Shown here: one piece after another, positions 9,079-17,009 of the stretch
Position numbering within the stretch: position 1 is the stretch's first letter
How the letters are laid out: every line of letters begins with the position of its first letter
Assembly (NCBI RefSeq): GCF_018350175.1
Contig: NC_058369.1
Coordinates: forward strand, 152,582,001 to 152,646,000
Source: Felis catus
Lineage: Eukaryota
DNA: 64,000 bases
Direction of reading: 5' to 3'
Position numbers and translations under genes: made by a program
The notes under the pieces: model-generated
Databases searched by the model: none
The model's input: only the letters and a program-made list of their open reading frames with translations
What the model was told of the DNA's origin: nothing

Positions 9079-10364
9079 CAAGCTGAGAGTTCAAGATACT
9101 GGGATCCTGACTTTCATGAGGACCAAAGCAACATTAATGTGATTATTAAACACTGCTGAAGATACATAAGAATGGGTCAAAACTGTTAACCACTGCCATA
9201 ATATATAAAGGCACAATACTTATTGTTGTTCTTGGTTTTTTCTCCCAAGCTCCTTGACAGTGTTTTTTTACATGTCCTTTAAAATGTTCTATTTTAATAA
9301 ATTTTTATTACAGAAATATTTCAGAGACACATAAATCTAACATCTATAATACATAATATTTGATATATCATATATAGATATAAAATATTTTAGAGCCATG
9401 TTCAAGTTTTAAAGTGGCCACACATAGGCACTCTGCCTGATATACCCAATCAAAACAGGACAGTTTACCTTACTGTAGTAGTGTATGCACCTACAATAAG
9501 AAAAAAAGAGCCCCATTTAAATTATATAACTAAAACTTAAAACACGACCCAAACTTAAACTGTAATAGAAATGTGACTAATTCTACACGCACCTCTATTG
9601 TCGACATTCTTGATTCTTTGAACACTATCAACAGAGTCACTGAAAATAACCACTGAACCCCATTCCTTAGACTCCAATTTACTGAAGAAGCCTTTTGTAG
9701 GAATATAGGCTATACCCCAGAATAAGCTCCAAATTGAAAATTAGAAGTTATTTTCCTCTTTCTCTGACCACTCAATTTTATCTTGCATGAAGGCAATGTT
9801 CTACTGTGCCCACCATTAGATTCCAAGCACAAAACAGTGGACAGAGAGCAAGTATAAAGTAATGCTTTTGAAAAAAATGTATTGTAATAAGTGAATAAAT
9901 AAATGTGTATCTATAAGATTAGGACTGAAGGTAAAATTACATGATTGAACTTTAGGAATCACTTTGGCATATCCCTAGACGTTAGATATTGTACAGTTCA
10001 ACATAGACATAAATTCTTTCATTCATTCTGCCAACTGACAACTCTGTTTGGTTTCAGAATACTTTGTGTTAAGATCTGTGATCAGGGCTGGGGACACGAA
10101 AATTCAAAAAGGATATGGTCAATGATCTCAAGTAGCCTAAGCCTAGTGTGAGACATATGCACACACATATAGAGCCAACATAATTAGTACCAGCCTGTTA
10201 CACCTTGAGAGCGGTAATGAGTATATCAACAGTGAGGTCCAATGAGAAGGTAACTAATTCAACAAGAAGCCACAGAGAATTCTTTGAAGAACCAATGATT
10301 CGACTAGGGCTTAAGAAATACATAGGATCCTCATAGAGGAAAGGCGGCAAATTATAAATTGTCG

Positions 10365-11109: not shown

Positions 11110-11710
11110 GGTTGGCGGGTCCTTGTCTGAGTAGCAGACCTGTGAGGGAAAAGGAGGCAGGTCGTCTAACCCTGAGGAGGTGATGAGGGTGCTCGACAAG
11201 GTGTAGAAACAGACCGGCTTTGTACTCACGTGGTGAAGGAGCCAGGGGGAGCAGATACTCTCCGCAGGTCGGCAGCTGGCACCTGATGGATACTAGAGGC
11301 AGCAGGGAATGAGCAGCGAAGACAGTCAGCACAACAGCGTGGACAGACAGGGAACAAGCCAGGAGAGAGAAAGAGAGACACACAAAATTTAAACAAAAAT
11401 TAAATGAGCGCGTCACCAAACAGTGAGTGAAAAGAAAAGGGAAATCCAGCCAGCCACGGACATAATCCAAAAAGCCGGTGATAGCAACGAAGCCAACAGG
11501 ACACAGGGCAAGGGCTGGCTCTACGGCAAGCCACAGACTGGAGCGAAGGGCAGGGCGCGGGCAGATGCAACCGAAGCGTGGACACTGGGCGGGGCTGCGG
11601 GCAGGAGGCATCGTGGTCCTCTCTCGCTCTAGGTCATTCGAGATATCCAACGAGAGGATGCGCGCATGTGCACAAGTACACACACACACACTCACACACA
11701 CACTCACTAG
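11110..11710. promoter_or_regulatory. Small intronic CpG-rich patch with a GC-box, an NRF1-like site and (CA)n
   Basis: About 28 CpGs counted by hand in 11110-11665, in an otherwise CpG-poor intron and not within a recognisable repeat. GGGCGGGG at 11587-11594; CGCGCATGTGCA at 11661-11672. Confidence 0.55.
11230..11292 (-). CDS. DGKI: Putative alternatively spliced DGKI cassette exon, 63 nt, (D)IHQVPAADLRRVSAPPGSFT(T)
   Basis: Acceptor gcctctag|T, donor AC|gtgagt. Phase 2 to 2 and open in frame after the exon ending GA at 16810. Resembles a 21-aa insert I recall from some mammalian DGKI isoforms (not verified). Confidence 0.8.
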
Positions 11711-16809: not shown

Positions 16810-17009
16810 TCATTGAGTAAAGGCATGGATGTTCTCCTCTTGCTCTTCTGCACCATGTTGGCTTGATTCCTCAAGGAGATCCGAATCATAGCTGGGGCCA
16901 ACCTACAGGGCTCCCCATCCACTTGCATGGGGATGGGTTTGTAAGTGAGCAGCACGACCTCCCGACACTGGTGTAGCCTTTCCCCATGGCCCCCAACTTG
17001 CAGGGCAGC
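16810..17009 (-). CDS. DGKI: DGKI coding exon, 200 nt, [66 protein letters not shown](D)
   Basis: Acceptor atttacag|GCT, donor GA|gtgagt; PMQVDGEP motif; overlaps ORF 16806-17021; phase 0 to 2. Confidence 0.97.

What the first reader, a model, noticed from the sequence alone, without database searches (positions are those of the whole stretch)
11230..11292. Hidden 63-nt in-frame cassette exon adding an RRVS kinase site next to the DGKI catalytic domain
Seen: a clean tag|...|gtgagt exon, phase 2-2, that extends ...[12 protein letters not shown] with IHQVPAADLRRVSAPPGSFT. RRxS is the PKA-type basophilic consensus, so inclusion places a second such site about 20 residues after RRTS. Inference: splicing switches a phospho-regulatory or 14-3-3-like module (RRVSAP) on this kinase. 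I recall a similar insert in rodent and human isoforms, so the exon may already be known; I know of no function for it.
Basis: partly seen in the sequence, partly recalled or inferred. Interest (0 to 1): 0.7.

Follow-up and report, generated by a model that had tools for sequence, protein, structure and literature searches.

The report
Fetal DGKI exon adds phosphosite motif
This small optional exon of the brain lipid-signalling enzyme DGK-iota is already in gene catalogues from sharks to mammals, is used in embryonic mouse cortex and dropped after birth under MBNL splicing factors, and adds a fixed motif that likely serves as a second phosphorylation and 14-3-3 docking site.

Summary
Real exon, not hidden. 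Window 11292-11230 (minus strand) is a 63-nt, phase 2-2 cassette exon of DGKI between 200-nt and 101-nt exons; both products are open. Database models with and without it exist within single species of shark, skate, sturgeon, gar, frog, lizard, duck and mammals. D-x-R-R-x-S-A-P-P is invariant in 43 of 43 distinct inserts, 19 residues after RRTS(M/V)P in 177 of 177 proteins, in a low-confidence linker of the model. Published supplementary tables hold the mouse counterpart: inclusion 0.71 at E14.5, 0.02-0.05 from P15 on; MBNL loss shifts it by 0.14-0.73. YGCY clusters lie just upstream here. Both serines fit the 14-3-3 mode I pattern at a spacing one dimer can span, so inclusion likely makes a two-site 14-3-3 clamp in the immature enzyme (about 40%). 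Phosphorylation and binding are untested, and no felid junction reads were obtained. The peptide appears in 0 papers searched. Known exon of a known kind; function open.

The parts
11230..11292 (-). 63-nt phase 2-2 cassette exon of DGKI (adds 21 residues)
   Evidence: matches insert-bearing DGKI models
11244..11264 (-). codons of RRVSAPP (Ser codon 11253-11255), the invariant core; fits RRxS and RxxSxP
   Evidence: R, R, S, A, P, P and the D at -5 invariant in 43 of 43 distinct inserts
11224..11229 (-). 5' splice site GTGAGT
11293..11514 (-). TAG acceptor, pyrimidine tract and long AG-free zone (previous AG 224 nt upstream; 5-62 nt at the ten constitutive acceptors examined)
11297..11339 (-). 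proximal YGCY cluster (paired motifs at -47, -26, -12), likely MBNL silencer
   Evidence: motif definition from PMC12148930
11542..11563 (-). distal YGCY cluster (-271 to -250)
16810..17009 (-). upstream constitutive DGKI exon (200 nt): end of the catalytic accessory region and start of the linker
16821..16838 (-). codons of the constitutive RRTSMP motif (Ser codon 16827-16829), first site of the pair

Best explanation
This is a conserved in-frame cassette exon of DGKI whose mouse counterpart is included in embryonic and newborn cortex and dropped between P4 and P15 under MBNL control, and its RRxSAPP motif likely gives the immature enzyme a second phosphoserine that would pair with RRTSMP, 19 residues upstream, to dock both grooves of one 14-3-3 dimer. 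Shown: exon, frame, both isoforms across jawed vertebrates, invariant motif and spacing (about 0.97); the developmental switch and MBNL dependence in mouse tables (about 0.9 that these rows are this exon and apply here). Inferred: MBNL binds the upstream YGCY clusters directly (0.7); the serine is phosphorylated by a basophilic kinase such as PKA (0.75); a 14-3-3 dimer binds the pair (0.4). Speculative: the clamp would restrain the linker between the catalytic and C-terminal domains and change membrane access or activity, so that DAG removal in immature neurons answers to cAMP-type signals.
For: Conservation: 88 hits from cartilaginous fish to mammals. Of 21 insert columns, 7 are invariant (D8, R10, R11, S13, A14, P15, P16) in 43 of 43 distinct inserts, while columns such as 2, 5, 6, 9 and 21 vary; spacing is 19 in 177 of 177. 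Both forms in one species: Chiloscyllium punctatum (5 with, 2 without), Rhinoraja, Acipenser ruthenus, Erpetoichthys, Polypterus, Lepisosteus, Xenopus tropicalis, Rana, Lacerta, Podarcis; Anas acuta, Leopardus geoffroyi, Gorilla, Papio, Kogia, Ailuropoda. Mouse counterpart: exon sizes 200/63/101 as here, upstream intron 5,120 against 5,517. PSI 0.71, 0.68, 0.51, 0.62, 0.25, 0.044, 0.026, 0.021, 0.052 from E14.5 to 21 months, repeated in a second series (0.72, 0.82, 0.56, then 0.02-0.04); core member of module M1-, Mbnl -1, Rbfox/Nova/Ptbp 0 (PMC5989265 Datasets S5, S9). dPSI 0.556 in adult Mbnl cDKO cortex, 0.64 (absolute) in embryonic cDKO neurons, 0.139 in Mbnl2 KO hippocampus, 0.726 in Mbnl1/2 knock-down CAD cells (PMC12148930 source data). 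Upstream 300 nt hold 16 YGCY against a window mean of 2.8, more than any of 203 bins, and 0-5 at ten constitutive acceptors. AlphaFold2 (mean pLDDT 81.5): residues 408-440, holding both serines (410, 429), under 50 with no secondary structure between two confident domains; Pfam puts them between DAGK_acc and PF23578. PMC2860806 (passages): mode I RXX(pS/pT)XP dominates, paired sites bind tens of fold tighter, minimum span about 15-19 residues counted inclusively (20 here), and splice-dependent sites are known in KLC1 and TPD52L1.
Against: No phosphorylation or binding data were found for either serine. RxxSxP is short and common: 4.8% of shuffles of the insert hold it. The span of 20 is only just above the quoted minimum. 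Invariant D(-5), A(+1) and P(+3) go beyond what PKA or 14-3-3 need, and PMC2860806 names Leu and Arg as commonest at -5. The YGCY excess vanishes against dinucleotide shuffles (16 observed, 15.1 expected, p 0.43; p 0.027 against mononucleotide shuffles). The mouse table marks the exon as not under strong selection. In human DM1 cortex it appears only inside one mutually-exclusive-exon row (dPSI 0.14, FDR 0.043) and in no splicing row of the supplements held for PMC9272850 or PMC8903011. Hits were picked by likeness to this region, which favours an intact motif. The isoforms are computed gene models. The mouse rows were matched by exon and intron sizes, not by sequence.
Confidence: 0.42

Rival explanations
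1. Same exon and same MBNL timing, but the added serine works as a plain phospho-switch without 14-3-3: phosphorylation neutralises a basic patch or shifts the linker and so changes membrane binding or activity, as PKC does on the MARCKS-like segment of DGK-zeta.
For: RRxS invariant and in a low-confidence linker; phospho-control of localisation and activity is reported for several DGKs (PMC4005014 passages); no DGKI-14-3-3 report turned up.
Against: Does not explain the invariant +2 proline at both sites, nor the fixed 19-residue spacing.
Confidence: 0.3
2. The D-x-R-R-x-S-A-P-P stretch is a docking motif for another partner, or folds back on the enzyme itself, whether or not it is phosphorylated.
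For: D(-5), A(+1) and P(+3) are invariant although neither a basophilic kinase nor 14-3-3 mode I requires them; the aromatic at column 19 is F in 42 of 43.
Against: No such contact appears in the model, where the segment is unstructured; no partner is identified.
Confidence: 0.2
3. The exon is only a spacer, or a passenger of MBNL regulation with no protein-level role.
For: Low adult inclusion in cortex; not flagged as under strong selection in the mouse table.
Against: Seven invariant residues in a linker, with both forms kept from cartilaginous fish to mammals.
Confidence: 0.08

Closest known systems
Mouse Dgki cassette exon chr6:36994858-36994921 (mm10), ID CA-320127-302935-308055-308118-327729; human chr7:137545899-137545962 (hg38)
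   Same: 63 nt, flanked by 200-nt and 101-nt exons in mouse (200-nt upstream exon in human), similar upstream intron, same place in the gene
   Different: Listed only as rows of splicing tables in what I read; Dgki has 0 mentions in the main text of PMC12148930; no peptide or function is given
RefSeq/UniRef DGKI isoform models with the insert (e.g. XP_053074016.1, XP_045351753.1, XP_072408572.1)
   Same: The two felid models are identical over the 121-aa inclusion product; the same insert in shark to mammal models
   Different: Computed models with no annotation of the motif
MBNL-repressed late-switch (module M1-) fetal exons
   Same: High embryonic inclusion, switch between P4 and P15, upstream YGCY clusters, return on MBNL loss
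   Different: Evidence in human DM1 brain is weak for this exon
Splice-dependent 14-3-3 sites (TPD52L1 exon 6, KLC1 exon 17; PMC2860806) and splice-dependent phosphosites (Kdm1a/LSD1 exon 8a; PMC5989265)
   Same: An optional exon supplies a short phospho-motif
   Different: Here the exon would add the second site of a pair beside a constitutive one; binding and phosphorylation are not shown
Rat DGK-iota splice variants (Ito et al. 2004, PMID 15024004)
   Same: Same gene
   Different: Not held (title seen in a reference list); recalled as C-terminally truncated forms, not this exon

Membership tests
Conserved in-frame cassette exon | Canonical AG/GT sites, matching phases, length a multiple of 3, open frame in both products | tested here: met
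Conserved in-frame cassette exon | Included and skipped forms in the same species | tested here: met
   models; PSI values for mouse
Conserved in-frame cassette exon | Junction reads in this species | not tested
   runs were listed but no reads were laid
MBNL-repressed fetal exon | Embryonic inclusion, adult skipping | tested here: met
   mouse cortex series, (published table; counterpart matched by sizes)
MBNL-repressed fetal exon | Inclusion rises on MBNL loss | tested here: met
   the sign is inferred, since an adult PSI of 0.02-0.05 cannot fall by 0.556
MBNL-repressed fetal exon | YGCY clusters upstream of the exon | tested here: inconclusive
   16 in 300 nt, more than any of 203 window bins, but p 0.43 against dinucleotide shuffles
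MBNL-repressed fetal exon | Direct binding (CLIP, minigene) | not testable with these tools
   only the Bayesian-network call 'direct target' in Dataset S9
Neural microexon (3-27 nt, SRRM4 type) | Length at most 27-30 nt and rising neural inclusion | tested here: not met
   63 nt; inclusion falls with maturation (length definition from abstracts)
PKA-type phosphosite | R-R-x-S consensus (recalled) in an accessible region | tested here: met
PKA-type phosphosite | Phosphorylation shown, kinase assigned | not testable with these tools
   no record found
Tandem 14-3-3 mode I client | Two RXX(S/T)XP motifs, no proline at +1 | tested here: met
Tandem 14-3-3 mode I client | Spacing at or above about 15-19 residues, in a disordered region | tested here: met
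   20 inclusive; pLDDT under 50; close to the lower limit
Tandem 14-3-3 mode I client | Phospho-dependent binding to 14-3-3 | not testable with these tools
   needs phosphorylated peptides or cell pull-downs

The most novel reading that the evidence does not exclude
A splicing switch kept since the first jawed vertebrates turns DGK-iota from a one-site into a two-site 14-3-3 client only in immature neurons: a phospho-gated clamp on DAG removal that MBNL proteins take off between P4 and P15 and that returns when MBNL is lost, as in myotonic dystrophy.
Probability: 0.3. Interest if true: 0.68.

Novelty: already known. Interest (0 to 1): 0.4.

Why it matters
The exon is catalogued, but nobody in the papers searched has given it a function. 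It has an unusually clean profile for a test: a 21-residue insert with seven invariant residues from sharks to mammals, a fall from about 70% to about 3% inclusion within two postnatal weeks in mouse cortex, and large shifts on MBNL loss. If the motif is a second 14-3-3 site, it would explain how a synaptic DAG kinase is regulated differently in immature and adult neurons, and give a signalling read-out for MBNL-loss brain phenotypes. Phosphoproteome searches against canonical sequences that lack the exon would miss the site.

Tried and rejected
RNA reads: 24 runs were listed, but no reads were laid, so there is no direct felid junction evidence. A search of shorter proteins for transcript-derived fragments spanning the junction (44 hits) gave 3 with the insert, all NCBI models; none of the Logan/ENA-derived hits covered more than 59% of the query. 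Complex prediction of a 14-3-3 sigma dimer from the own genome with the unphosphorylated 43-residue linker gave no verdict (0.39; one control 0.57) and is not used either way. The first AlphaFold model (36 close sequences, mean pLDDT 49.8) was too poor and was replaced. PDB search: the best 60 of 250 matches are all to the ankyrin repeats, none covers the linker. Microexon/SRRM4 reading rejected on length and direction. Rbfox: one TGCATG 244 nt downstream, not above background (11.8% of bins), and Rbfox is 0 in Dataset S9. Origin by duplication of the upstream exon end: only weak similarity (protein p 0.025-0.041; DNA p 0.013 with the shared donor included), left open. No insert was seen in the non-DGKI proteins among the 34 of 150 representatives examined, nor in two DGKZ hits; this is not proof of absence. 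Papers not held: Ito 2004, Charizanis 2012, Goodwin 2015, Yang 2011; the exon may be named there. Three of 15 supplements of PMC5989265 were outside the first search (one was then searched) and 8 of 20 of PMC12148930 were not searched. The search of earlier findings: nothing by sequence, one unrelated DGK note by words.

Full report
Observation. On the minus strand the window carries the catalytic-domain exons of a diacylglycerol kinase iota gene; held DGKI proteins map to ten exons between 63525 and 16810. The finding's segment is exact: a TAG acceptor, 63 nt from 11292 to 11230, and a GTGAGT donor. The 200-nt upstream exon ends in phase 2. The next exon is outside the window, 27,403 nt further on, 101 nt long. 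Inclusion and skipping both give open frames; the inclusion product is identical over 121 residues to cheetah and Geoffroy's cat RefSeq models. A simple filter for frame-preserving exon-like segments over the 16.8 kb of intron in the window returned only this one.

Conservation. Of the 120 listed hits of the first search, 14 carry the insert, 100 lack it and 6 are uninformative. A search with the platypus insert region gave 88 proteins from sharks, skates, bichirs, sturgeons, gar, teleosts, frogs, a newt, turtles, squamates, birds and mammals. Cluster look-ups, which do not select on the motif, show both forms within single species in cartilaginous fish, ray-finned fish, frogs, lizards, birds and mammals. 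Among 177 held proteins with a standard 21-residue insert (43 distinct inserts; four non-standard models, P0010, P0026, P0080 and P0199, fall outside the pattern but keep RRVSAPP), D8, R10, R11, S13, A14, P15 and P16 never change, and the serine is always 19 residues after that of RRTS(M/V)P. The first motif is older: two bird DGKZ hits read RRNSMP and some unnamed distant representatives RRGSMP, with no insert (34 of 150 representatives examined). These are computed gene models, and part of the set was chosen by likeness to this region.

Regulation. The 300 nt upstream hold 16 YGCY motifs, against a mean of 2.8 and more than any of 203 bins of the window, and 0-5 at ten constitutive acceptors; the AG-free zone is 224 nt against 5-62. 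The excess is not significant once dinucleotide content is fixed (p 0.43). This pointed to MBNL, and published tables bear it out. In PMC5989265 (section 6, passages, Datasets S5 and S9) a 63-nt Dgki cassette is 'known AS', a core member of late-switch module M1-, Mbnl -1 and 0 for Rbfox, Nova and Ptbp; PSI falls from 0.71 (E14.5) and 0.62 (P4) to 0.25 (P7) and 0.02-0.05 (P15 onward), and a second series agrees. In PMC12148930 (outline, passages, source data) the same exon, flanked by 200-nt and 101-nt exons, shifts by 0.556 in adult Mbnl cDKO cortex (FDR 9e-11), 0.64 in embryonic cDKO neurons, 0.139 in Mbnl2 KO hippocampus and 0.726 in knock-down CAD cells. I read these as increases because the adult baseline is near zero. 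The match to the window rests on exon sizes (200/63/101), the upstream intron (5,120 against 5,517) and the position in the gene (308 kb against 290 kb from the start), not on the mouse letters; the downstream intron differs more (19,611 against 27,403). In human DM1 cortex the 63-nt exon shows up only inside one MXE row (0.14, FDR 0.043), and DGKI has no splicing row in the supplements held for PMC9272850 (one file cut) or PMC8903011.

Protein context. Pfam places the insert between the accessory catalytic domain (to 643 in P0232) and PF23578 (from 697). An AlphaFold2 model from 66 sequences (mean pLDDT 81.5) has residues 408-440, with both serines, below 50 and without secondary structure, between confident domains; only 11 of the 66 rows were chosen as insert-bearing. 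Both serines fit RRxS (PKA-type, recalled) and RXXSXP. PMC2860806 (passages) gives RXX(pS/pT)XP as the dominant 14-3-3 motif, says paired sites bind tens of fold tighter and need about 15-19 residues counted inclusively (20 here), and names two splice-dependent sites in other proteins.

Mechanism. Shown: an optional in-frame exon, kept with both forms across jawed vertebrates, with an invariant motif at fixed spacing; in mouse, early inclusion and MBNL-dependent shut-off. Inferred: direct MBNL silencing through the upstream YGCY clusters (0.7); phosphorylation by a basophilic kinase (0.75); a two-site 14-3-3 clamp (about 0.4). Speculative: an effect on membrane access or activity of the immature enzyme. 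Rivals are a phospho-switch without 14-3-3 (0.3), a docking motif for another partner, suggested by the invariant D(-5), A(+1) and P(+3) (0.2), and a spacer (0.08). RxxSxP alone is weak evidence: 4.8% of shuffles of the insert hold it.

What is known. The exon is in RefSeq/UniRef models and in splicing tables, so it is already known. The peptide strings occur in 0 papers of the library; searches for DGKI with splicing (38 papers, 30 listed), splice variants, PKA, 14-3-3, microexon terms and MBNL showed no study of this exon in the listings. Reviews PMC4005014, PMC7555651 and PMC7554708 and paper PMC4042849 were read as passages only and say nothing on it there. Four primary papers were not held and may mention it.

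Verdict. Observation confirmed; interpretation partly supported. A known MBNL-type fetal exon whose product is unstudied in what I could search and easy to test. Interest 0.4; the two-site 14-3-3 reading with a developmental role has probability about 0.3 and would deserve about 0.68.

Noticed in passing
PMC5989265 Dataset S5 row 92 (not mapped to the window): A second, then-novel Dgki cassette (CA-sr-chr6r-3201) switches the other way in mouse cortex: PSI 0 at E14.5 to 0.28 in the adult, module M1+.
   Followed up: no
L006 about 9963-9998 (G000:C2 near 152541990): A second optional exon of about 45 nt, present in some DGKI models and absent in others; intron sizes fit the mouse cassette CA-320127-365656-368295-368340-382553, which has no module or regulator call.
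   Followed up: partly
window 16810-16872 against 11230-11292: The end of the upstream exon and the cassette share RRxSxP, phase 2 and the same GTGAGT donor; the similarity is weak (p 0.01-0.04), so an origin by internal duplication is possible but not shown.
   Followed up: partly
window 11293-11315, minus strand: UGC triplets at -9, -12 and -23 inside the pyrimidine tract resemble the SRRM4 element (recalled), but they overlap the YGCY motifs and inclusion falls with neuronal maturation.
   Followed up: no
proteins P0356, P0369, P0398, P0389, P0397: The first motif reads RRNSMP in tinamou DGKZ and RRGSMP in unnamed distant relatives, but RRTAAP in one DGKZ-like representative, so the site may have been lost in part of the DGKZ line.
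   Followed up: no
proteins P0080 (platypus X1) and P0199 (Discoglossus): Models with extra residues after or before the insert; possibly further exons or modelling artefacts.
   Followed up: no
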